Source: Patescibacteria group bacterium (GTDB lineage Bacteria > Patescibacteriota > Patescibacteriia > JAHJFT01). Taken from it: DNA of 64,000 bases. Shown here piece by piece: positions 39,685 to 49,232 of the stretch. Location: the NCBI GenBank assembly GCA_028710985.1, contig JAQTTB010000001.1, forward strand, positions 523,014 through 587,013. Reading direction: 5' to 3'. A model generated the notes under the pieces. The model searched no databases. It saw only the letters and a list, made by a program, of their open reading frames with translations, and was not told the origin of the DNA. Numbering within the stretch: the stretch's first letter is position 1; every line of letters begins with the position of its first letter. Made by a program: the position numbers and the translations under genes.

Positions 39685-40551
39685 ATGTTTATTTATCTTA
39701 TCCAAATAGTCTGTTTCGTGCTCTTCGGCGTTCTGGCAGTAATCGCGCTGCGCCGCCGTGAGCTTTGGACTTTGTTCGTGGCGACGATTTACGCCGCTTT
39801 TTTTGAAAATCTCGACATCATCATTTCCCGCGGAGAGTTTGGCAGTTACACCTATGATCCCCATCTTATCCTCATCGTCATTCAAACCCCGCTTTTTGTC
39901 ATTCTGTCCTGGGGCATAATTTTTTACTCATCATTCCTGCTTGCGAAAGGGCTGACCCGAAAGTTTTGGATTCAGGCGCTCTCCGTGCCTCTTCTCGCAA
40001 CAATTATAGATTTGACCATGGATCCGGTGGCCACACGGCTTGGGTTGTGGTCATGGCAGGGCTATGGCGCGCACGACGGCATTCTCGGCGTGCCGCTCGC
40101 GAATTTCATGGGCTGGTATCTCGTAGTGTTTGCACTCATGATCACCTTGCGCCTTATCGGTCACATTGATTTTTTGGGACGAACGGGCCGCAATGTCATC
40201 ATGCCAATTTTTTCCTGCGGGCTTTTTTTTATTTTTTTCGCTGCGTTCAGTTTTACGGCCAATGCGTTCGGCCTGAATATTTCAAATCAGTTTAATTTTA
40301 TCCAATTTTTCTTTCCGCCGGTTGCGGCGGCTTGCATTATCGGTTGGATATTATTTCCGGGAAAAATCAGCATCAGTCGTAGCCATCTTTTTTGGATGTA
40401 TGCATCGCGTGGGCTTTTCTACATATTTTCGGTTTACGGATTAATCGCTCTGGGCTTCTGGAAAGAGCCGGTGTTCATTATTCTGCTGGTCTTCTCGCTG
40501 GTTATCGAAATCATTGCAGGTATAAAATTTAAAATAAATGCCAAGACTTAG
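39685..40551 (+). CDS. hypothetical polytopic membrane protein
   Basis: 288 aa with seven or eight predicted helices. Confidence 0.5.
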   Translation: MFIYLIQIVCFVLFGVLAVIALRRRELWTLFVATIYAAFFENLDIIISRGEFGSYTYDPHLILIVIQTPLFVILSWGIIFYSSFLLAKGLTRKFWIQALSVPLLATIIDLTMDPVATRLGLWSWQGYGAHDGILGVPLANFMGWYLVVFALMITLRLIGHIDFLGRTGRNVIMPIFSCGLFFIFFAAFSFTANAFGLNISNQFNFIQFFFPPVAAACIIGWILFPGKISISRSHLFWMYASRGLFYIFSVYGLIALGFWKEPVFIILLVFSLVIEIIAGIKFKINAKT

Positions 40552-41917
40552 CGCTTCACAGCTTTACAATTTTTCTCAGTGCCCCTACCGCGTCCACCTT
40601 GATATTTTCGGAGATGAGAAAGAGAAATCGCCGGAATCGGATTTCCTCGCCATGCTGATCGAGGAGGGCGTGCGTCATGAAAAAGACGCCATCGCTGAAA
40701 TGCCATTCTTAGAGGTGGAGGCGCGCGGCACGCTTACGGCACGAGCCGAAGTTACACGCGACCTGATGAAAAAGAAAACGCCCTGGATTTATCAGGGCGT
40801 GCTTCTGACTCGCACCATGGTCGGCATTCCTGATATTTTGGAATATACGGGCGGCCGGTATATCCCCGTGGAAATCAAGTCCGGTGCCGGTCTTAAGGAA
40901 GCGTATATCCAGCAAATCTGTTTTTACGATGAGTTGCTCGGCGAGCTTTTTGGACGTCGTTCGGGTCGCGGTAAAATAATAAATATCAAGAAAGAAATTT
41001 TGGAAGTGGACTGCAATGCCTCGCGTCGCGCCTTTCTTGATAACCTTGCCGCCCTTAAGAAAATCGCCTCGGGTGAAGAAGAGAGTGAGCTGGCCATCGG
41101 TTCGGATTGCAATAACTGCCACTGGAGAAAATTCTGCGAAGAAAAAGCGCGCGCCGAAGATGATCTTACTCTGATCCACGGTCTCGGCCGAGCGTTCAAA
41201 GAGGGGCTGAGGCAGGCCGGGATCAAAACCCAGGGCCAAGCCGCTAAGGTCGATCCGTCGCTCGCGCGCGAAATCCGGCGCCTCGGTCCGGCAAAGCTTG
41301 AAAAATTCCGCGAACAGGCTAAGGTGAACATTGCCGGCAAGATGATGGTTTTCGCGAGGCCCACGATGCGCTGCGCGCCCCTCGAGATATTCATCGATCT
41401 CGAAGGGGATCCGATGCTCGGGATAGACTACCTTATTGGTATGATCGTCCGAAAAAAGGGTAAGGAGCAGTATGTCAGCTTCGTTGCCCGCCGGCCCGAA
41501 GATGAGGCCGCGATGTGGGAGGAGTTCCTTAATTTCATGGCCGGCATCTCGGAAGATTACATTCTTTATCATTATCATAATTATGAAAAAGTGCATTTCA
41601 AGATGCTGTTCGAAAAATATGGCGGCGACGGAGAGCTTTATCATGAAATCGACTATGCGCTCGAGGATCTGAAGAGAACGATCGATAAATCAATGTATCT
41701 TCCGCTTACGCGCTATAGCCTCAAGTGCGTTGCGCGCCATTTGGGTTTTGAATGGCGCGCGGGAGAAGAGGCCGGAGGCGCAAATTCCATTATCTGGTAC
41801 GAGAAATATCTTGGGGATACTGAAAAGAATGCAGATTTGATGCAAAAAATTATTGACTACAATGCCGATGACTGCCGCGCGACCCGTGTGGTCAAAGACT
41901 GGCTTGAGAAAATTTGA
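40538..41917 (+). CDS. RecB-family nuclease, TM0106-type (PD-(D/E)xK nuclease with Cas4-like Cys cluster plus RNase-H-like C-terminal domain)
   Basis: N-terminal YNFSQCPYRVHLD; Cys cluster CNNCHWRKFC; C-terminal IDYNADDCRAT, typical of TIGR03491-like proteins (from memory). Confidence 0.65.
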   Translation: MPRLSASQLYNFSQCPYRVHLDIFGDEKEKSPESDFLAMLIEEGVRHEKDAIAEMPFLEVEARGTLTARAEVTRDLMKKKTPWIYQGVLLTRTMVGIPDILEYTGGRYIPVEIKSGAGLKEAYIQQICFYDELLGELFGRRSGRGKIINIKKEILEVDCNASRRAFLDNLAALKKIASGEEESELAIGSDCNNCHWRKFCEEKARAEDDLTLIHGLGRAFKEGLRQAGIKTQGQAAKVDPSLAREIRRLGPAKLEKFREQAKVNIAGKMMVFARPTMRCAPLEIFIDLEGDPMLGIDYLIGMIVRKKGKEQYVSFVARRPEDEAAMWEEFLNFMAGISEDYILYHYHNYEKVHFKMLFEKYGGDGELYHEIDYALEDLKRTIDKSMYLPLTRYSLKCVARHLGFEWRAGEEAGGANSIIWYEKYLGDTEKNADLMQKIIDYNADDCRATRVVKDWLEKI

Positions 41918-42715: not shown

Positions 42716-43150
42716 ATGATATCACTTTCTTACGGATTTATTGCCGGTGGCATCGGCGGCATTGTCATGGCCATACTAATTCATCTTGCACCGCTTATTG
42801 CAAGCAAAAAATATTTACCCGATATTGATAAGTACTTTTTTCTCGGCCGTCATTTTTCGGCTCGCGAAGTCCATCTCTTTGGAATTTTTATTCAGCTCGC
42901 CTTGAGTGTAATTTTCGGCGGGATATATATTCTACTCGTTGATCAAAAAATAATATTTCATGATTTTCACTATGTGTCCATTCTTTTTTACGGCGTACTT
43001 GTCTGGCTCGCCAAGGGGGCGATTCTCACCCCGCTCCTCGGGGCCGGGTTCTTCGGCGCCAAGCAGGGAAAATACGTCTGGCTGGAAATGTTTATAATCC
43101 ATCAAATTTACGCCCTGGTTTTCTGGCTGGCGGTCAATTTATACGTCTGA
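42716..43150 (+). CDS. hypothetical four-TM membrane protein
   Basis: 144 aa, hydrophobic throughout. Confidence 0.45.
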   Translation: MISLSYGFIAGGIGGIVMAILIHLAPLIASKKYLPDIDKYFFLGRHFSAREVHLFGIFIQLALSVIFGGIYILLVDQKIIFHDFHYVSILFYGVLVWLAKGAILTPLLGAGFFGAKQGKYVWLEMFIIHQIYALVFWLAVNLYV

Positions 43151-43302
43151 GTTATCCACAGAACCCGGTCCCTTTACTTGGAAAATATAGGCTGGTATAA
43201 TATATTTAGCCGTAAGGAGTGGTGATACGCTCTCTATGGCGATAGTTCGGGAAAACAAAATCTCACCATCCGGTGAGATTTTGCTTTCTAGAGTGTCGTC
43301 GC

Positions 43303-43331
43303 TTGACAGTTTTTCGCTTGTATTGTAATAT
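43303..43331 (+). promoter_or_regulatory. sigma70-like promoter of the rplJL operon
   Basis: TTGACA, 17-nt spacer, TAATAT. Confidence 0.5.
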
Positions 43332-43339
43332 ATTGTTAT

Positions 43340-43508
43340 CAATTTAATTTTTGCCGAAGATAACGGGGGTTTCAGCCAGAGGCTGAGGCTTAAAACCACA
43401 CCCCGTCGAGGTGAAATTCCGGCCTGACACTACTTTTAGGTCATGGACTCGGACCTCGTTATCTGCGGCAAAACCGCAGTTTATTTTTTACCCAAAGGTC
43501 GCAACTAT
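43340..43508 (+). ncRNA. rplJ (L10) leader with attenuator hairpin
   Basis: Structured 170-nt 5' UTR ending in CTGCGGCAAAACCGCAG plus T-run (43463-43490), just before the rplJ ATG. Confidence 0.5.
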
Positions 43509-44033
43509 ATGCCAAAAACAAGAGTACAGAAAGAAAATACCGTTTCCGACTTGGTCGACAAATTCAGCCGCACCAAGTCAGTGGTTTTTGCCGATTTTCA
43601 GGGGCTCAAAATGCCGGAAATCGACGAATTGCGCAACCAATGCCTAAAGCAGGGCATTTCTTACTCAGTCGCCAAAAAGACCCTGGTGCGCATCGCGCTT
43701 GAGAAAGCGGGCGTCAAAGAGATTGATCCAAAGTCAATTGAAGGTTCGCTCGCCACGGTTTTTGGATTTGAGGATGAGGTCGCGCCTGCAAAATTGCTCG
43801 CCACCTTCTCCAGAGCGCACGAGGCGCTCAAGATTAAAGCCGGCATACTTGAAGGCCGGCTCATTCCGTTCGAAGAAGTAATGAAGCTTTCTAAGATACC
43901 GTCAAGGCTTGAGCTTTATGCCATGCTCGTTCGTACCATGAATGGACCGGTTTCCGGATTCGCCAATGTTCTTGCTGGAAATCTGCGGAAATTTATGTAC
44001 GCATTAAACGCAATCAAAGAATCTAAATCATAA
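43509..44033 (+). CDS. rplJ: 50S ribosomal protein L10
   Basis: Start set at [11 protein letters not shown]10 fold. Confidence 0.9.
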
Positions 44034-44047
44034 ATAATTTTAAAAAT

Positions 44048-44452
44048 ATGGCAGAAGAGAAAAAAGACGTCGTGGTTCCGGAAAAATTCAAGAAGCTCGT
44101 TGAGGAAGTTGAAAAAATGAGCGTACTTGATCTCTCGGAACTCGTTAGCATTCTTGAGGATAAATTCGGCGTTTCGGCCGCCGCTCCGGCAGTTGCCGTT
44201 GCCGCCGCCGCTCCAGTCGCCGCCGAAGCCGCCGATGAAAAGACCGAGTTCAATCTTGAACTCCTTGAAGCCGGCGCCAACAAGATCAACGTGATTAAGG
44301 TGGTTCGTGAAGTCACGGGTTTAGGCCTCGCCGATGCCAAGGCCATCGTTGACAGCGCACCGAAGATAGTGAAAGAAGCCATGCCAAAGGCTGATGCCGA
44401 AGCCGCCAAAAAGAAGATTGAGGAAGCCGGCGGAAAAGCAGCTCTCAAATAA
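44048..44452 (+). CDS. rplL: 50S ribosomal protein L7/L12
   Basis: Ala-rich hinge and C-terminal domain ([24 protein letters not shown]). Confidence 0.95.
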
Positions 44453-44460
44453 TTGGTTAC

Positions 44461-44505
44461 AAAATAAAAAAAGAACGGCCGTGTAATTATGCGGCCGTTC
44501 TTTTG
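44461..44505. repeat. left 44-bp direct repeat / terminator hairpin flanking the RT module
   Basis: AAAATAAAAAAAGAACGGCCGTGTAATTATGCGGCCGTTCTTTT. Near-identical to 46289-46333 except for the 10-nt loop. Confidence 0.7.
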
Positions 44506-44554
44506 ATTTTTTTAAAAAAAGAGGCATCGCGTTTGCGATGCCCGAGCGGCGTAG

Positions 44555-45460
44555 TTAAATACCGAGTTTTCTTAATGCCCTCAGTCCGTTAAAGCGGTCG
44601 ACGAGCTTGGTTTCAGTGCGGTTGTGCGGAGCACAGTATTCGGTCGCCCCCCAGAAAGCGCCCATCATGCCAGCGGCCTGGGCAAAATTTGCACGGCCGC
44701 GTTTGACCGAGTACAGGCGGCCGCGTATCTTGCGCAGATAGTGCCGCGGGATAAAGATGCGGCTGGTCTTATCCATGGCAATGCCGTTGATGACCACCGG
44801 AGCCTTTTGGATGTCGCGGACAATGGATTTCTTATGGTTGATCTGGAATCCAGCCGCGAGAATGATGCGCCGTATCATCTGCCGCTTTCTTTTGCCGATC
44901 GGTTCAGTCGCCGAAAAGGTCAGGTCGTCGAGATAGCGCGTATAGATGATGCCGTGGCGCCGGCAGAATTCGCCGAGCGGCCGGTCAAGAAGTTCGCCGG
45001 CATAGCGGTTGGCAAGATCCGGCGAAGCCGGCGCGCCGGTTGCGAGCCCACCCTCGTCTGCTATGCAGTACTTATTAAGAAAGGCGAGAAGCCCTGTCTC
45101 GTCCTCCATCAGCCGTTCGTCAAGATTCATGAGTATCCCGGCGAGCCGCTCGGCGTCCACGCTCGGATAGAAATTGTGGATGTCGGTGAGGTAGAAAAAG
45201 CGGTTGCCGCGGTGCCGGAGCACATTTTTCTTGGGGGATGAGCCGCGCATCGCGCCGGTGGCGTGCGGCAGGGGATGGTGCTCGAGAAGGTGGCGCCGCA
45301 AGTAAAAGATTAGCCCGCGGTGGACCTGGCGCATCGCGTTATTTGGCGCGTAGAGCGTGCGCATTTTTACGGTCTTCGCTACCGGATTTACGTCTCTGTA
45401 GGTAAATTTGTTGAACCCCGGAGTCCCATCTATGTTTTTCAGAATTATATCAAAGAGCAT
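44555..45460 (-). CDS. stand-alone reverse transcriptase, retron- or defence-RT-like (301 aa, no maturase or endonuclease domain)
   Basis: RT motifs: HATGAMRGSSPKKNVLRH plus FFYLTDIHNFYPSVD (motifs 1-2), GLATGAPASPDLANRY (motif 4, the SP type), YTRYLDDLTFS (YxDD), AAGFQINHKKS (motif 7). AAGGAGG SD 5 nt before the ATG at 45460. TTGCAT, 17-nt spacer, TAAAAT promoter at about 45490-45520 on the minus strand. Confidence 0.8.
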   Translation of the reverse strand: MLFDIILKNIDGTPGFNKFTYRDVNPVAKTVKMRTLYAPNNAMRQVHRGLIFYLRRHLLEHHPLPHATGAMRGSSPKKNVLRHRGNRFFYLTDIHNFYPSVDAERLAGILMNLDERLMEDETGLLAFLNKYCIADEGGLATGAPASPDLANRYAGELLDRPLGEFCRRHGIIYTRYLDDLTFSATEPIGKRKRQMIRRIILAAGFQINHKKSIVRDIQKAPVVINGIAMDKTSRIFIPRHYLRKIRGRLYSVKRGRANFAQAAGMMGAFWGATEYCAPHNRTETKLVDRFNGLRALRKLGI

Positions 45461-45535
45461 GGCGCCCTCCTTATAGATTTTTGTGTAGGTTGATTTTAGT
45501 ACAGCGCCGAATAAAATGCAAGTAAATTTTTTTGG

Positions 45536-45916
45536 TATAAAAAACGCATCAAACCAGGGGTTTGACGCGAAGGGAGAAACCCGATTTTCATCGGGCAGTG
45601 AATTCACAGCGGCGGGTTGGCCAAGTTCGTTGCCCGATTCTGGGTTCTGCGGACAACGATCAAGAGAACAGACTTTGCCGCTGAGGCTTCGATGCAGGGC
45701 CGAAACGGCAGCGCCGAGGCCGCAGGCCGGGGCGCCCTCTGTGCCGAAAGAAGAAGAGAAGGGGCGGATACTATGGCAATTTCCGTTTCCGGAAATCCCG
45801 CTGGCGCACCTTGATGCGCCAACCCTCGTGGGCAAGAGCACTTTGGCGTCCAGCCAGAACCAGGAAACCGTCTTGGCCAACCCGGACTGGACTTGGCTTT
45901 ATCCTATCATAAACAA
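45536..45916 (-). ncRNA. structured ncRNA unit 1 upstream of the RT (RT-associated template/scaffold RNA candidate)
   Basis: No credible ORF or SD. Ends on the minus strand in GCGTCAAACCCCTGGTTTGATGCG plus a U-run. Shares conserved hairpins with unit 2. Confidence 0.4.
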
Positions 45917-46297
45917 AAAAACGCATCAAACCAGGGGGTTTGATGCGAAGAGAGAGAGTCCCGACTCGGTCGGGAAGAAAGTGCAGCGGCGGGTTTGAGT
46001 CATTGTCCGCAAGGGACTTTCCGGGCATGGGAGCTTGCCGCTGAAGATACCCGTGGCGTCCGAGGGCACTGAACAACGGGCCGAATCAGCCACTGCGGCC
46101 GCTGATCCGCCTCATGCAGATACCAACGGGAGCGCTTCGGGTTGCCCAGGGGCGATGGGGTACTGTTCAAAGCCCTGGTTTAACCCTTTGGCGCACCTGA
46201 AATGCGCCAAGACGATGAGCACCGAGGATCTCACCCGGAATGAACTAGCTCAAACCCAGCCAAGGTGGCTATGAAGAGGGTAGCATAAAATTCAAAA
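45917..46297 (-). ncRNA. structured ncRNA unit 2 (diverged tandem copy of unit 1)
   Basis: Ends in GCATCAAACCCCCTGGTTTGATGC plus U7. Same hairpin set as unit 1 with compensatory changes. Confidence 0.4.
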
Positions 46298-46333
46298 TAA
46301 AAAAAGAACGGCCGCGATATCGTGGGCCGTTCT
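46289..46333. repeat. right 44-bp direct repeat / terminator hairpin flanking the RT module
   Basis: AAAATAAAAAAAGAACGGCCGCGATATCGTGGGCCGTTCTTTTTT. Confidence 0.7.
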
Positions 46334-46336
46334 TTT

Positions 46337-48574
46337 TTATTCGCTGAATCCGAAATTCCAGACGCCGTTGTCGGCCAGCACCCAGATTTGGCGTGCCGTG
46401 CGATCGATGTAAAAACTTTTTATATTCTGCAGGTCGTTCAGGAGGTATTGAGTTTTGAGTTTACCGTCCTTGGCCAGTACTACAACACGTTTTCCGGCCG
46501 GGTCAAGAATAAATATATTGTCCGTACCCTCGGTCGTCCAAATTTGCGTCGCGCCCGTCAGCGCGGGATCAATGGTCGTAGCCGACCAGGATTGTTTTTC
46601 ACCGGTATAGAATTTATAAATTTCACCATTTGATTTCAGGGCGTAAATCGAGCCGTCAATCGTAATGGCGACTGCGTCCGAAAGATTGACATTCGCAGTT
46701 TTAATCCAGGCCGCGCCGGCCGCGAGCCCGGAATCGGGCGAGCGGTGCTGCTTAAATATTTGGTTCGCCGTGGTGTCCAAGACATAAATATTTGAATTCC
46801 AGCCGGCCGCGTCAATAAAGCTCTTTTGTTCGGCCGCGGCGGCGAGGGGAACGTCCCTCCACGAAAGTCCGGCCACGTCAATTTCCGAAGCCCCTGGGCG
46901 CTGGTCGAAAACCAAATATGAATTATCGCCGGATTTGTAAATCGCGGTAATGCTTTGTATATCCGCATTTTCCCAGTCAACTTCCTGCCAGGCATTCGCG
47001 TCGTCGCGCCAGACATAAAGTTCTTTTGCCCCGGAAAGAATCAAAGTTTTATCGGCGTTTCGCAGGAGATAACGAAAGTTAATCGTCTGGCCTTCGGCGC
47101 TGAGCGGCATGTCGGCGACTTTCTCTAAATCGTTTGGAATGACTTCATGGCGGAGCTCTTGGCGTAAAATATCAATTTGGGCGAGAAGTCCCTGTTTGAT
47201 TTCGCGCTGATCGCGCTTTGCTTCCGGTAGCGACTGGATTGCGGATAGCGCTTGGCTCACAAGCTCACGCGTGCGTTCCTCGTCGCCGTAGATCAGGGTA
47301 CTCTCGGCCTCGTCTTTTATTTGAGTGATCTCAATCACTTTATTATTATAAACCGCCTCGTCTTCGCGTGCATGTTTCCGATAGTTGAGATAAATCAGGC
47401 TCCATGCAAAAAGTAGCACCAGGATAAGGGCGATGATAAAAACCGATTTATTTTTCTTGCCGAGATGGCTGAACCAGCCGACCGAGCGGTCTCCGGTTTC
47501 CTGGGCATCGCTCTTATAGCTCGCGATGGTTTCGGCGCGTTTGCCGTGGAAGTTCGTAATGATAAAAAATAAGTTTTTGAAGAAGCGGCCGGTGATGCCG
47601 ATTGCGCGGAGCGTGATGGCACCGATCCAAATAAAGAATTTGGCAATGCTCCGGGGGAGTTCGCGCGGGGTTGGAGCGATTTTTTCCTCATATTTCGGGC
47701 CGCGTATTGGTATCAGTCGTGAAATTACCGCAGTGAGCCCAGCCCAAATCTTTGAGGCAAACCCAGTGCCGCCGCCTAAAAGATATCGGTCGGTTTCCGC
47801 GGTAGTCGCCTTAAGATGCTCAAGCGAACCTCGGAAATTCTTCGGTGCCGCCGCTTCGGTGCCGACCGGGATAAGTTCTTCATAATGCTGGATGATAATG
47901 GCCGTATATCCGCCGCGCAGACTGCCGTGCAAAAGTTCATTGCGCAGATATTCGACGGATTCGACCGGTTTTTTCGCGGTTACAATCGGCAACAGCCGTT
48001 CTTCGGGGAAGGCTTCGGCCAGTTCGGAGTTTGAGATTATTATGGCATCCCCGCTTTGGATGGAGCCGTACATTACATTTTCAAAAATTTTAACGGGATT
48101 AAAATTATCCGGATCGGATTGAACGTTCTTCGTAAGATCAAAAACGCGGTAACCTTTGCCATCCTGCTTCTGGAAAAACATCATTTTATTCTGGCCGATC
48201 GCGGAGAACGAAAGGTCCGTGCCGGAGCAAGCGGCGATTAAGATATTCAATTTCTTAAGATCCACCGGATTGGATTCTTTGGAGATAAAATCCGTGATAT
48301 TTTTATTGGTCGCCTGTAGGGATTTTTCAAACTCCGCGCCAAAGTCAATGCCATGCTCTTCCTGATAAAATTTTTCAATGCCGTCGATAAAGTTTTCGGT
48401 CAAACGTTCGTAGGCTGGATGGATGGAGTCGATTTTAATAATGCCAAAAATAGATCCGCCTTCATGCGCCGCACCCGGTGGAATTTCAAAATTAAAAACG
48501 CGGTTAATGCATTGGCGGTTCGTTGCGCTTTCTAGGAAAAGCTCGTTTATGAGTATCTCCGGCTTCTTTGACAT
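46337..48574 (-). CDS. large membrane protein: cytoplasmic N-domain, one TM helix, extracellular repeat (beta-propeller-like) domain
   Basis: 745-aa ORF. TM helix VFIIALILVLLFAWSLIYL in the middle. C-terminal half has repeated blocks (NIYVLD, SIYALK, NIFILD). Confidence 0.6.
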   Translation of the reverse strand: MSKKPEILINELFLESATNRQCINRVFNFEIPPGAAHEGGSIFGIIKIDSIHPAYERLTENFIDGIEKFYQEEHGIDFGAEFEKSLQATNKNITDFISKESNPVDLKKLNILIAACSGTDLSFSAIGQNKMMFFQKQDGKGYRVFDLTKNVQSDPDNFNPVKIFENVMYGSIQSGDAIIISNSELAEAFPEERLLPIVTAKKPVESVEYLRNELLHGSLRGGYTAIIIQHYEELIPVGTEAAAPKNFRGSLEHLKATTAETDRYLLGGGTGFASKIWAGLTAVISRLIPIRGPKYEEKIAPTPRELPRSIAKFFIWIGAITLRAIGITGRFFKNLFFIITNFHGKRAETIASYKSDAQETGDRSVGWFSHLGKKNKSVFIIALILVLLFAWSLIYLNYRKHAREDEAVYNNKVIEITQIKDEAESTLIYGDEERTRELVSQALSAIQSLPEAKRDQREIKQGLLAQIDILRQELRHEVIPNDLEKVADMPLSAEGQTINFRYLLRNADKTLILSGAKELYVWRDDANAWQEVDWENADIQSITAIYKSGDNSYLVFDQRPGASEIDVAGLSWRDVPLAAAAEQKSFIDAAGWNSNIYVLDTTANQIFKQHRSPDSGLAAGAAWIKTANVNLSDAVAITIDGSIYALKSNGEIYKFYTGEKQSWSATTIDPALTGATQIWTTEGTDNIFILDPAGKRVVVLAKDGKLKTQYLLNDLQNIKSFYIDRTARQIWVLADNGVWNFGFSE

Positions 48575-48638: not shown

Positions 48639-49232
48639 ATGCTTGAACAACTCTTTGGTTCACATACCCGGGCGCGCCTGCTAAATTTGTTTTTGCGCAA
48701 TTCGGACAAGTCTTTTTTTGTCCGCGAAATTACCCGGAAAATCCAGTCCCAGATCAATTCGGTACGGCGCGAATTGCGCAATCTGGAGGATGTCGGTTTG
48801 CTTACCTCCACCGAGATGCAGGATGCCGAAGGTAGGGCGCTCCCCAAAACCGCCAAGCGATTTTACCGCGTGAATAAAGATTTTGTTCTGTATCAGGAAT
48901 TGCAGGCCTTGATTTTAAAATCCCAACTCCTGCTCCAGCGTGATCTGCAAAGAAAAATTGATGAACTTGGCACGATCAGTTATTTGGCGCTCACCGGTTC
49001 ATTCCTCGGGCGCGAGGATATGCCGATTGACGTGTTTATTGTCGGACGAATCAGCGGTGAAAAGCTCGCCCGCCTCATCAAAAAGTTTGAAAAATCTTTG
49101 GGCGAAGAAATCAATTATACCGCCATGACGCTCAAAGAATTTAATTATCGCCGTCAACTCACGGATAAATTTCTTTTCTCCATACTCGAGGGTCCCAAGA
49201 TTGTTCTCATTGATAAACTGGAAGTTAGCTAA
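48639..49232 (+). CDS. winged-helix DNA-binding protein with C-terminal nucleotidyltransferase-like domain (putative regulator)
   Basis: N-terminal wHTH (RARLLNLFLRNSDKSFFVREITRKI). Confidence 0.45.
   Translation: MLEQLFGSHTRARLLNLFLRNSDKSFFVREITRKIQSQINSVRRELRNLEDVGLLTSTEMQDAEGRALPKTAKRFYRVNKDFVLYQELQALILKSQLLLQRDLQRKIDELGTISYLALTGSFLGREDMPIDVFIVGRISGEKLARLIKKFEKSLGEEINYTAMTLKEFNYRRQLTDKFLFSILEGPKIVLIDKLEVS

What the first reader, a model, noticed from the sequence alone, without database searches (positions are those of the whole stretch)
44555..45460. 301-aa RT with retron/group-II-like motif 4 (SP type), YLDD active site and its own promoter
The ORF track extends this ORF 140 codons further upstream (441 aa). 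That extra N-terminus is Ser/Gly/Ala/Cys/Pro-rich, reads through the ncRNA hairpins and terminator, and has no SD. The internal ATG at 45460 has AAGGAGG at -5 and a TTGCAT, 17-nt spacer, TAAAAT promoter. From that ATG the protein shows RT motifs in canonical order: HATGAMRGSSPKKNVLRH, FFYLTDIHNFYPSVD, GLATGAPASPDLANRY, YTRYLDDLTFS and QINHKKS. A possible VTG-like VING follows. The size and the absence of X/En domains fit retron- or defence-type RTs. It is not a DGR RT: it lacks the [I/V/L]GxxxSQ motif.
Basis: partly seen in the sequence, partly recalled or inferred. Interest (0 to 1): 0.7.

Follow-up and report, generated by a model that had tools for sequence, protein, structure and literature searches.

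The report
Effector-less retron with tandem ncRNAs
This is an intact retron-type reverse transcriptase from a large family confined to ultra-small Patescibacteria (CPR) bacteria; it sits next to two tandem copies of its own ~350-nt structured RNA and has no partner toxin gene, so it is an unusual variant of a known bacterial retroelement.

Summary
The 301-aa ORF 44555-45460(-) is a complete reverse transcriptase (RT), and the 140-codon upstream extension is not protein. By sequence profiles and predicted fold it is a retron-type RT with the retron hallmarks (N-V-x-x-H, [IV][NT]G, RYLDD). It reaches no described retron type's cut-off. It belongs to a large family (about 500 clusters at 50% identity) found almost only in Patescibacteria.

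I found the cognate ncRNA. It is a ~350-nt RNA on the RT strand, supported by covariation. It has a long closing helix P1, a short helix A, hairpins HP1 and HP2, a CU-rich hairpin region of variable length, a near-invariant RACCUCAGCG motif (S1), and its complement CGCUGA (S2) abutting P1. The HP1-HP2 module lies next to the RT in about 49 loci, upstream or downstream, often as arrays of 2-4 units. The window has two units.

No neighbouring protein gene is conserved in 74 loci, and contexts are housekeeping.

Most likely it makes msDNA-like cDNA from each unit. The priming G, the role of the S1/S2 pairing and the biological output are unresolved. Tests for a DRT2/Neo-like ORF, a DGR or a group II intron were negative. 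Verdict: a new variant of a known kind.

The parts
44555..45460 (-). Reverse transcriptase gene, 301 aa, retron-type (N-V-x-x-H, RYLDD, V-I-N-G)
   Evidence: ORF and translation. PADLOC, Pfam and NCBIfam hits. Family alignment starting at this Met. AlphaFold2 model with mean pLDDT 95.2, whose top Foldseek PDB hits are retron RTs.
45466..45472 (-). Shine-Dalgarno sequence AAGGAGG, 5 nt before the ATG
   Evidence: Read directly from the sequence. Relatives carry similar AGGAGG boxes before their starts.
45493..45521 (-). Promoter-like TTGCAT-17 nt-TAAAAT pair (weak, 8 of 12 consensus positions)
   Evidence: Present in the sequence but below the threshold of the promoter scan. Inference only.
44514..44543 (-). 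Intrinsic terminator after the RT gene
   Evidence: Terminator scan: 9-bp stem plus T-run.
45539..45884 (-). ncRNA unit 2, the consensus-type unit. Elements: P1a 45884-45854; GUGCUC 45841-45836; helix A 5' strand within 45830-45822; HP1 45822-45801; HP2 45799-45775; CU-rich tract 45767-45744; S1 AGCCUCAGCGGCAAAG 45688-45673 (candidate priming G at 45681); P1b 45643-45613; S2 CCGCUG 45612-45607; tail hairpin 45595-45580; terminator 45569-45539.
   Evidence: 31-nt inverted repeat (I1). Fold z-score -4.5. Covariance-model hit of 40.4 bits, E 1e-8. Element coordinates. Family-wide covariation of HP1/HP2, P1, helix A and helix B.
45915..46261 (-). ncRNA unit 1, a divergent unit. Elements: P1a GGCUGGGUUUGAG 46261-46249; GUGCUC 46222-46217; HP1 46210-46188; expanded HP2 46186-46139; S1 AUCUUCAGCGGCAAG 46048-46034 (candidate priming G at 46041); P1b CUCAAACCCGCC 45999-45988; S2 CCGCUG 45989-45984; tail hairpin 45974-45960; terminator 45947-45915.
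   Evidence: Alignment with unit 2 shares HP1, GUGCUC, S1, AACCCGCCGCUG, the tail and the terminator. Fold z-score -4.5. Coordinates. The HP1-HP2 model does not detect it because HP2 is expanded. The GGGUUUGRG/CYCAAACCC form of P1 recurs in distant loci.
46293..46341 (.). Palindromic terminator hairpin bracketing the module on the upstream side. It ends the 745-aa gene.
   Evidence: Repeat families D1, I4 and I6. The 10-mer AAGAACGGCC is found only in this hairpin and its twin in the 64 kb.
44460..44508 (.). Twin palindromic terminator hairpin bracketing the module on the downstream side. It ends rplL.
   Evidence: 76% identical to 46293-46341 over 49 nt (D1). Terminator scan. 10-mer count.

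Best explanation
The locus is a self-contained two-component retroelement: a retron-type RT plus two tandem genes for its cognate ~350-nt structured ncRNA. It belongs to a large family specific to Patescibacteria (CPR bacteria) and has no cis-encoded effector.

Shown here:
- The RT is intact, retron-like in sequence, motifs and predicted fold.
- The ncRNA is a conserved structured RNA on the RT strand, adjacent to the RT in about 49 loci.
- It has a long closing helix P1 (the a1/a2 equivalent), a 5-bp helix A, two hairpins HP1 and HP2 (probable RT-recognition, msr-like), hairpins of variable length (msd-like), and the near-invariant motif RACCUCA-G-CG (S1). S1 resembles the UAGC priming-G context of Retron-Eco1.
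- S1 also pairs with CGCUGA (S2), which directly follows P1.

Inferred:
- The RT binds HP1/HP2 of each unit.
- It primes from the 2'-OH of a conserved G that faces the template across the internal loop between P1 and helix A. The favoured candidate is the G of S1 (G45681 in unit 2, G46041 in unit 1). The alternative is the G of the RGCYC motif after P1a (G45839, G46220).
- It makes one msDNA-like cDNA per unit.
- P1 and the S1:S2 helix act as alternative conformations that gate priming.
- The RT-cDNA-RNA complex is the functional product. It most likely senses infection, and its output is either the cDNA itself or a factor encoded elsewhere.
For: RT identity:
- PADLOC retron RT models at 1.6e-34 to about 1e-23; the 25 best hits shown, of 65 matching families, are all retron RT models.
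- A family profile hits PDB retron RTs Ec83 (1.9e-29) and Ec86 (3.4e-28), against 4e-7 for DRT2.
- NCBIfam retron_St85_RT at 1.9e-33.
- AlphaFold2 pLDDT 95.2; Foldseek top 18 hits are retron RTs with TM 0.62-0.72.
- Both retron hallmark motifs defined in PMC7736814 are conserved in the family.

ncRNA:
- HP1/HP2 form standard pairs in 89% of cells, against 43-50% when partners are slid by 1-3 columns. Compensatory changes occur in 58 cells against 8-17 in the slid controls.
- The covariance model gives 80 hits at E up to 1, 73 of them on the RT strand. Hits lie 50-400 nt upstream of the start or 50-260 nt downstream of the stop, and include many loci not used for training.
- P1 has at least 9 of 10 pairs in 31 of 43 units, against 10% in shuffled controls.
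- Helix B (S1:S2) is perfect in 29 of 43 units, against 12% in controls. Compensatory variants are UCAACA/UGUUGA, UUAGCG/CGCUAA, UCAGCA/UGCUGA and UCAGCU/AGCUGA.
- Helix A switches between CCUCA/UGAGG and CUUCA/UGAAG.
- The S1 consensus is gaaCcTCAGCGg.
- The Eco1 priming G lies in UAGC immediately after a1 (PMC11754653).

Two-component nature:
- No shared neighbouring gene in 42 loci, then in 74 loci down to 45-aa ORFs.
- The window module is bounded by terminators on both sides.

Selection:
- The RT sits at the same chromosomal site in a Parcubacteria genome (L019) whose flanking proteins are only 25-37% identical, while the RT is 46% identical.
Against: - No experiment or read data show any cDNA.
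- The priming G cannot be assigned. In the S1 model the helix partner of the 'a1' segment lies upstream, so the RNA would be a circular permutation of a canonical msr-msd. That arrangement is unprecedented.
- In the canonical model the candidate G sits in a weakly conserved motif.
- S1:S2 and a 30-bp P1 cannot coexist in cis. The gating role I give them is speculation.
- The RT scores below every type-specific cut-off (116 bits against 235 for retron_St85_RT).
- There is no effector, so the modern tripartite definition of a retron is not met.
- Unit 1 lacks a clear helix A and the consensus HP2, so it may be impaired.
- Defence is not supported by context: neighbours are rplJ/rplL, ATP synthase, DnaB/UvrD and tRNA synthetase genes.
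Confidence: 0.7

Rival explanations
1. It works like DRT2 or DRT9 rather than like a retron. The RT copies part of the ncRNA repeatedly, by rolling-circle copying or slippage, and long repetitive cDNA is itself the effector. This could run through the loop closed by helix A or over the CU-rich tract.
For: - The architecture is RT plus ncRNA only, with no protein partner.
- Helix A juxtaposes two CAGC-containing strands in some units.
- A conserved pyrimidine tract follows HP2.
Against: - The RT is far from the DRT clades: Drt2 scores 25.8 bits against a cut-off of 390, Drt3a 31.8 against 200, and none of the 25 best PADLOC hits shown is a DRT model.
- The distance between the two CAGC motifs shows no preference for multiples of 3 (3 of 15 units). 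Only 1 of 15 units has a circularly open frame.
- Whole-unit open frames are not longer than chance.
- The upstream CAGC is present in only about a third of units.
- The CU tract appears to be the 5' arm of a hairpin.
Confidence: 0.12
2. The RT-ncRNA pair is a domesticated, non-defence component of CPR cell biology, for example cDNA used in DNA metabolism or regulation. The retron-like chemistry is retained but not the abortive-infection logic.
For: - Housekeeping neighbourhoods.
- The same chromosomal site in two deeply diverged Parcubacteria.
- Essentially absent from viral contigs: one relative at 27% identity.
- No effector.
Against: - Distribution is patchy: 38 close loci in 185,579 species genomes with a pattern-limited search.
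- Genomic locations vary, and ncRNA copy number and position vary.
- One locus lies next to an integrase gene.
- The window module is GC-richer than its flanks and bracketed by a duplicated hairpin.
- All of these are typical of accessory or defence genes.
Confidence: 0.12
3. The upstream structured RNA is only a cis-regulatory leader or attenuator of the RT gene, and the RT uses some other template.
For: - S2 lies 15-35 nt before the RT start in many loci, and alternative pairings (P1 versus S1:S2) could control translation.
- In the window, terminators follow each unit.
Against: - In about 18 loci the same RNA lies downstream of the RT stop codon.
- Arrays of 2-4 units each have their own terminator.
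- The architecture (terminal long helix, recognition hairpins, variable hairpins, UAGC-like motif) matches an RT template RNA.
Confidence: 0.04
4. It is a remnant of a group II intron ORF, or a DGR reverse transcriptase.
For: - Pfam sees only the generic RVT_1 domain.
- CPR genomes are rich in DGRs (PMC8632793).
Against: - The group II RT/maturase model scores 22 bits against a cut-off of 300. There is no maturase or endonuclease domain, and Rfam finds no group II intron in 43000-48000 at E up to 1.
- The units have no VR-like copy in the 64 kb.
- DGR RT structures rank only 26th or lower in the fold search.
- The full-length family is about 300 aa.
Confidence: 0.02

Closest known systems
Retrons (for example Retron-Eco1/Ec86 type II-A; Ec83, Ec78 and St85 type I-A)
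   Same: - RT fold, size (~300 aa) and hallmark motifs (NAxxH-type, VTG-type, YxDD).
- A structured ncRNA on the same strand next to the RT, closed by long terminal inverted repeats.
- Recognition-type hairpins followed by hairpins of variable length.
- A conserved xAGC motif like the Eco1 priming-G context.
   Different: - No effector gene, and below every type-specific HMM cut-off.
- The ncRNA is larger (~350 nt). An extra helix A closes the hairpin core, and an S1:S2 pairing crosses P1.
- The ncRNA is sometimes downstream of the RT and often in arrays of 2-4 units with different P1 and variable regions.
- Each unit can have its own terminator.
- The host range is Patescibacteria.
Orphan retrons (the Retron-Eco5/Ec107 branch discussed in PMC7736814)
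   Same: A retron RT plus ncRNA without an identifiable associated protein. That paper already raised the question of a trans effector versus a different mechanism.
   Different: [quoted passage not shown] Here absence of an effector is family-wide across 74 loci, and the ncRNA architecture is different.
DRT2 (UG2 RT plus ncRNA, Neo gene synthesis)
   Same: A two-component RT plus ncRNA system with no protein effector. A helix brings two ends of an RNA segment together.
   Different: The RT belongs to another clade (PDB DRT2 E 4e-7; NCBIfam Drt2 26 bits against a cut-off of 390). Tests for an endless ORF were negative.
DRT9 (UG28) and DRT3 systems
   Same: An RT plus ncRNA. A pyrimidine-rich tract in the RNA could in principle template a low-complexity cDNA.
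   Different: Similarity to DRT models is only remote (NCBIfam Drt3a 31.8 bits against 200; PDB Drt3a 4e-6), and none of the 25 best PADLOC hits shown is a DRT model. DRT9 structures rank 33rd or lower in the fold search. The CU tract appears base-paired.

Membership tests
Retron | RT belongs to the retron RT lineage by sequence and fold | tested here: met
   PADLOC's 25 best hits are all retron RT models, best 1.6e-34. PDB retron RTs score 1e-29 to 1e-20 over profile positions 28-275. The Foldseek top 18 hits are retron RTs.
Retron | NAxxH motif in region X between RT2 and RT3 (PMC7736814) | tested here: met
   The window has K-N-V-L-R-H. N79 is nearly invariant and H83 invariant in 38 family members. 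The second position is V, I or A.
Retron | VTG triplet in RT7 / region Y (PMC7736814) | tested here: met
   The window has V-I-N-G. The family has [IV][TN]G with G226 invariant. This is a variant of VTG; G is the residue the source calls most conserved.
Retron | Adjacent ncRNA with terminal inverted repeats (a1/a2), msr hairpins and an msd stem-loop | tested here: met
   P1, HP1/HP2 and the variable hairpins are supported by covariation. The RNA lies next to the RT in about 49 loci. The architecture has extra elements: helix A and the S1:S2 pairing.
Retron | Conserved priming G immediately after a1 (UAGC context) | tested here: inconclusive
   There are two candidates. One is the near-invariant S1 motif ACCUCA-G-CG, which follows the 3' strand of helix A. 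The other is the looser RGCYC motif after P1a. Sequence alone cannot decide between them.
Retron | Production of branched msDNA (2'-5' linkage) | not testable with these tools
   This needs nucleic-acid extraction, a debranching assay or cDNA sequencing.
Retron | Cognate effector gene or fused effector domain (tripartite system) | tested here: not met
   No shared neighbouring gene in 42 and then 74 loci, down to 45-aa ORFs. The RT is 301 aa with no extra domain. The window module is bounded by terminators.
Retron (any described type I-XIII) | Score above a type-specific model cut-off | tested here: not met
   retron_St85_RT 116 bits against 235; Ec67 73 against 450; TIR type 87 against 600. 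The PADLOC types II-A, III-A, XII, XI, VI and X all score alike.
DRT2 (UG2) | RT of the UG2 clade | tested here: not met
   NCBIfam Drt2 25.8 bits against a cut-off of 390. PDB DRT2 4.3e-7 over a partial region.
DRT2 (UG2) | Template whose concatemer gives a stop-free reading frame (length a multiple of 3) | tested here: not met
   Only 3 of 15 units have a length that is a multiple of 3, and 1 of 15 has a circularly open frame. Whole-unit open frames are no longer than chance. The template boundaries are assumed.
Group II intron-encoded protein | Maturase (X) domain and a surrounding intron RNA | tested here: not met
   Pfam sees only RVT_1. TIGR04416 scores 22 bits against 300. Rfam finds no intron.
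Diversity-generating retroelement | Template repeat with a diverged variable-repeat copy in a target gene; DGR-type RT motif | tested here: not met
   No second copy of either unit in the 64 kb. The RT motif is GAPASPDL rather than GxxxSQ. Only this window was searched.

The most novel reading that the evidence does not exclude
This Patescibacteria family is a distinct class of RT system derived from retrons. Arrays of circularly permuted retron-like RNAs would be copied from a priming G in the invariant ACCUCA-G-CG motif, gated by a P1 versus S1:S2 conformational switch. The cDNA or RT-RNA particle itself, not a toxin, would be the functional output, serving defence or a CPR-specific housekeeping role.
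Probability: 0.28. Interest if true: 0.85.

Novelty: new variant of a known kind. Interest (0 to 1): 0.64.

Why it matters
Retrons are currently understood as tripartite toxin-antitoxin-like defence systems in which msDNA restrains an effector. This is a large, ancient family that keeps the RT and an elaborate RNA but never an effector. It sits in the smallest bacterial genomes known, where little is dispensable. It therefore asks directly what a retron RT-cDNA complex can do on its own.

The recurring arrays of 2-4 template RNAs per RT, and an RNA with two covarying but mutually exclusive helices around a UAGC-like motif, give concrete handles for experiment: which G primes, and what the switch senses.

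Compact 300-aa RTs that accept several template RNAs in trans could also interest retron-based DNA-writing technology.

I found no paper that links retrons to Patescibacteria in the searchable literature.

Tried and rejected
- Primary-sequence search for the ncRNA in related loci with nhmmer found nothing outside the window. The RNA had to be traced by motifs and a covariance model instead.
- Rfam found no family for either unit at E up to 1.
- Neo-like coding was tested twice. The longest stop-free frames over 18 units matched composition-matched random sequence (p 0.06-0.92). The circular-frame and length-mod-3 test between the two CAGC motifs was also negative.
- DGR was rejected: the units have no VR-like copy in the window.
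- Group II intron remnant was rejected.
- A conserved effector was sought by clustering neighbours at 80 aa and above in 42 loci, then at 45 aa and above within 2.5 kb in 74 loci. Only antisense shadow ORFs inside the RT gene are shared.
- The adjacent 745-aa protein as effector: no Pfam or PADLOC hit, and shared only with the syntenic locus L019.
- Phage origin: only one relative, at 27% identity, in IMG/VR.
- Extra orphan units in the window: none.
- The covariance model does not recognise unit 1 even with filters off. It was assigned by alignment to unit 2 and by motifs.
- Literature searches for retrons in CPR or Patescibacteria and for effector-less retrons gave nothing specific. The supplements of PMC7736814 are not held.
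Full report
**1. Observation**

The minus-strand frame 44555..45880 is open for 441 codons from a TTG. The internal ATG at 45460 is preceded by AAGGAGG (45472-45466) with a 5-nt spacer. A TTGCAT-17 nt-TAAAAT pair lies at 45521-45493. That pair matches only 8 of 12 consensus positions and was not reported by the promoter scan, so it is plausible but unproven.

Two intrinsic terminators lie upstream of the ATG inside the long frame: CGCAUCAAACC...GGUUUGAUGCG plus a T-run at 45947-45922 and at 45569-45545. Homologues are about 300 aa and start at the Met that aligns with 45460, so the 140-codon extension is not conserved as protein. Long open frames over the upstream region, on both strands, are what its composition predicts. 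NCBI's own call for this gene (350 aa) also starts inside the upstream RNA.

**2. The protein**

- Pfam sees only RVT_1 (1.6e-10).
- PADLOC's 25 best hits are all retron RT models: II-A at 1.6e-34, then III-A, XII, XI, VI, X and Ec107-like.
- NCBIfam gives retron_St85_RT at 1.9e-33, but 116 bits lies below the 235-bit cut-off. Drt3a, Drt2 and group II RT are far weaker.
- A profile of 38 family members hits PDB retron RTs Ec83 (1.9e-29), Ec86 (3.4e-28), Ec78 and Ec67 across nearly its whole length, against 4e-7 for DRT2.
- The AlphaFold2 model is confident (pLDDT 95.2). Its 18 best Foldseek PDB matches are all retron RTs with TM 0.62-0.72. Group II RT GsI-IIC, DRT2, G2L4 and DGR RTs come after them.
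- The two motifs that PMC7736814 gives as retron hallmarks are conserved. NAxxH appears as K-N-V-L-R-H (N79 nearly invariant, H83 invariant). VTG appears as [IV][TN]G (G226 invariant). RYLDD is also conserved.

It is therefore a retron-type RT that fits no described type.

**3. The family**

A word-indexed search found about 66 proteins at 39-51% identity, all about 300 aa. Where sources name the organism, it is a Patescibacteria group bacterium. The next relatives are St85-type retron RTs at 32% identity. An exhaustive profile search counts 511 clusters (at 50% identity) with E up to 1e-30.

Genome and metagenome scans gave 41 and 62 loci. They come from Parcubacteria, Saccharibacteria, Paceibacterota, Kerfeld-, Zambryski-, Vogel-, Campbell-, Harrison- and Andersenbacteria. 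A few distant Planctomycetota relatives also appear. IMG/VR holds only one relative, at 27% identity.

**4. The cognate RNA**

The 880 nt between the RT and the upstream gene consists of two related units, each ending in the same terminator. Each folds far better than shuffled sequence (z -4.5 for both). Rfam has no family for them, and nhmmer finds no primary-sequence relatives. Related loci nevertheless share several elements.

- S1 and S2. The motif RACCUCAGCGR (S1) is followed 35-70 nt later by its complement CCGCUGA (S2).
- HP1 and HP2. Two adjacent hairpins covary strongly. Standard pairs form in 89% of cells, against 43-50% when partners are slid. Compensatory changes occur in 58 cells against 8-17, and 0 of 500 shuffles reach the observed score.
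- Covariance-model search. A model of this module gives 80 hits at E up to 1 in 100 sources, 73 of them on the RT strand. Many are in loci not used for training. About 49 loci have a hit at E up to 0.01.
- Position. The module lies 50-400 nt upstream of the RT start, or in about 18 loci 50-260 nt downstream of the stop.
- Arrays. They recur: the window (2 units), L006, L007, L008 and L016 (2 each), L012 (3-4), L104 (3), and L005 (one unit on each side of the RT).

The full anatomy, 5' to 3', is as follows:

- a 5' hairpin in many units;
- P1a;
- strand X, with a loose RGCYC motif;
- the helix A 5' strand (UGARG);
- an A-rich linker;
- HP1;
- HP2;
- a CU-rich tract that forms the 5' arm of the first of one or more variable hairpins (35-290 nt in all);
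- S1, consensus gaaCcUCAGCGg;
- strand Y;
- P1b;
- S2, with no linker after P1b;
- a tail hairpin and a terminator, or the RT ribosome-binding site.

Support for the three long-range helices comes from 43 units:

| Helix | Observed | Shuffled control | Compensatory evidence |
|---|---|---|---|
| P1 (10 nt scored) | at least 9 of 10 pairs in 31 of 43; perfect in 15 of 43 | 10% at 9 or more; 0.5% perfect | sequences differ widely between loci while pairing is kept |
| Helix B (S1:S2, 6 nt) | perfect in 29 of 43 | 12% | UCAACA/UGUUGA, UUAGCG/CGCUAA, UCAGCA/UGCUGA (twice), UCAGCU/AGCUGA |
| Helix A (6 nt) | at least 5 of 6 pairs in 34 of 43 | 37% | CCUCA/UGAGG in 14 units, CUUCA/UGAAG in 5 |

X and Y pair further, so P1 reaches about 30 bp in the window's unit 2 and in L042, L045 and L054. 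S2 abuts the outer end of P1 and S1 lies at its inner end. The two helices therefore cannot coexist in cis in those units. They must alternate, act in trans, or form after P1 is opened.

**5. The window's units**

Unit 2 (45884-45539) is consensus-like and scores 40 bits with the model.

Unit 1 (46261-45915) keeps P1 (GGGUUUGAG/CUCAAACCC, a form also seen in distant loci), HP1, S1, S2, the tail and the terminator. Its HP2 is expanded and it has no clear helix A, so the model misses it.

Between the two units, the RT-proximal recognition elements and the terminators are nearly identical. P1 and the variable hairpins differ.

**6. Context**

No neighbouring protein family is shared across 42 loci (ORFs of 80 aa or more), nor across 74 loci (ORFs of 45 aa or more within 2.5 kb). 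The largest real neighbour family covers 7 related loci.

Neighbours are housekeeping genes. In the window they are rplJ and rplL. Elsewhere they include ATP synthase, DnaB, UvrD, KsgA and a tRNA synthetase. One locus has an integrase gene.

The window module is bounded by terminators and bracketed by two copies of a 49-nt palindromic hairpin whose core 10-mer occurs nowhere else in the 64 kb. It is GC-richer than its flanks.

A Parcubacteria genome (L019) has the RT at the same site between the same genes. The flanking proteins are only 25-37% identical, while the RT is 46% identical. This indicates long vertical retention.

**7. How it probably works**

Shown: a retron-type RT and a covarying, RT-linked structured RNA with a terminal long helix, recognition-type hairpins, variable hairpins and a near-invariant xAGC motif.

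From the literature: in Retron-Eco1 the priming G lies in UAGC immediately after a1 (PMC11754653). Retron RTs prime from the 2'-OH of that G and copy the msd (PMC7736814).

Inferred: the RT binds HP1/HP2 and primes at a G in the internal loop between P1 and helix A. There are two readings.

- (a) Permuted. The G of S1 (ACCUCA-G-CG, very like Eco1's ...CCUUA-G-CG) follows the 3' strand of helix A. The template is then strand X and P1a, upstream of the UGARG strand. This explains why S1 is the only near-invariant motif. It requires a circularly permuted retron RNA.
- (b) Canonical. P1 is a1/a2, the G of RGCYC after P1a primes, HP1/HP2 are the msr and the variable hairpins are the msd. This keeps the usual order, but the candidate G is poorly conserved.

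I favour (a) slightly. Neither can be settled without cDNA data.

In either reading the alternation of S1:S2 with P1 would gate priming, or in loci where S2 sits just before the ribosome-binding site, RT translation. That role is speculative.

The output of a system without an effector is unknown. Tests for a DRT2-style endless ORF were negative.

**8. Comparison and novelty**

It works like a retron and meets the RT-level and RNA-level criteria. It fails the effector criterion and every type-specific cut-off.

Orphan retrons have been noted before. [quoted passage not shown] What appears undescribed here is:

- family-wide absence of an effector in a CPR-specific clade;
- the larger RNA with helix A and the S1:S2 pairing;
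- RNA placed on either side of the RT;
- arrays of template RNAs.

I found no paper linking retrons to Patescibacteria. The library does not cover subscription journals, so this is not proof of absence.

**9. Caveats**

- The helix partners were chosen as best complements within search windows. Shuffled controls and positional consistency address that bias but do not replace a full structural alignment.
- The covariance model covers only HP1-HP2.
- Locus discovery relied on exact peptide patterns and under-samples the family.
- Taxon labels are those of the records. Two loci labelled 'Gammaproteobacteria' (L008, L016) are probably mis-binned.

Noticed in passing
window 45460-45607 (-): The public NCBI call for this RT (350 aa) starts 49 codons upstream of the family-conserved Met. 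That start lies inside ncRNA unit 2, at a GTG within S2, so the annotated N-terminus is probably over-extended.
   Followed up: partly
window 44460-44508 and 46293-46341: The RT-ncRNA module is bracketed by two copies (76% identical) of a 49-nt palindromic terminator hairpin. Its core 10-mer AAGAACGGCC occurs nowhere else in the 64 kb. The module is GC-richer (0.54-0.61) than its flanks (0.42-0.50). This looks like an old insertion into, or duplication of, a bidirectional terminator between convergent genes.
   Followed up: partly
window 48639-49232 (+): A 197-aa protein matches the PADLOC candidate defence family PDC-M05A at 1.2e-27. It has a homologue (37% identity) in the syntenic locus L019, but no homologue near the RT in the other loci clustered.
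   Followed up: no
window 40538-41917 (+): A 459-aa fusion of a Cas4 / PD-(D/E)XK nuclease domain with an RNase_H_2 superfamily domain lies 2.6 kb from the RT. It is not found near the RT in other loci.
   Followed up: no
window 43336-43494 (+): A sub-threshold Rfam L10_leader match (32 bits, gathering score 44) lies in the expected place upstream of rplJ-rplL.
   Followed up: no
L104 4018-4872; L012 4847-5950; L005 5794-5861 and 7106-7173: ncRNA arrays occur in relatives. L104 has three tandem units, about 1 kb downstream of an integrase gene. L012 has three or four units. L005 has one unit upstream and one downstream of the RT.
   Followed up: partly
window 46099-46105 (-), inside unit 1: Unit 1 carries a second UCAGCGG motif inside its variable region. 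It pairs locally with GGCUGAU in a hairpin (GAUCAGCGGCCGCAGUGGCUGAUUC), mimicking the S1:S2 pairing.
   Followed up: no
window 46337-48574 (-): The 745-aa protein next to the module has no Pfam or PADLOC match. Among the fetched loci it is shared (25% identity) only with the syntenic locus L019.
   Followed up: partly
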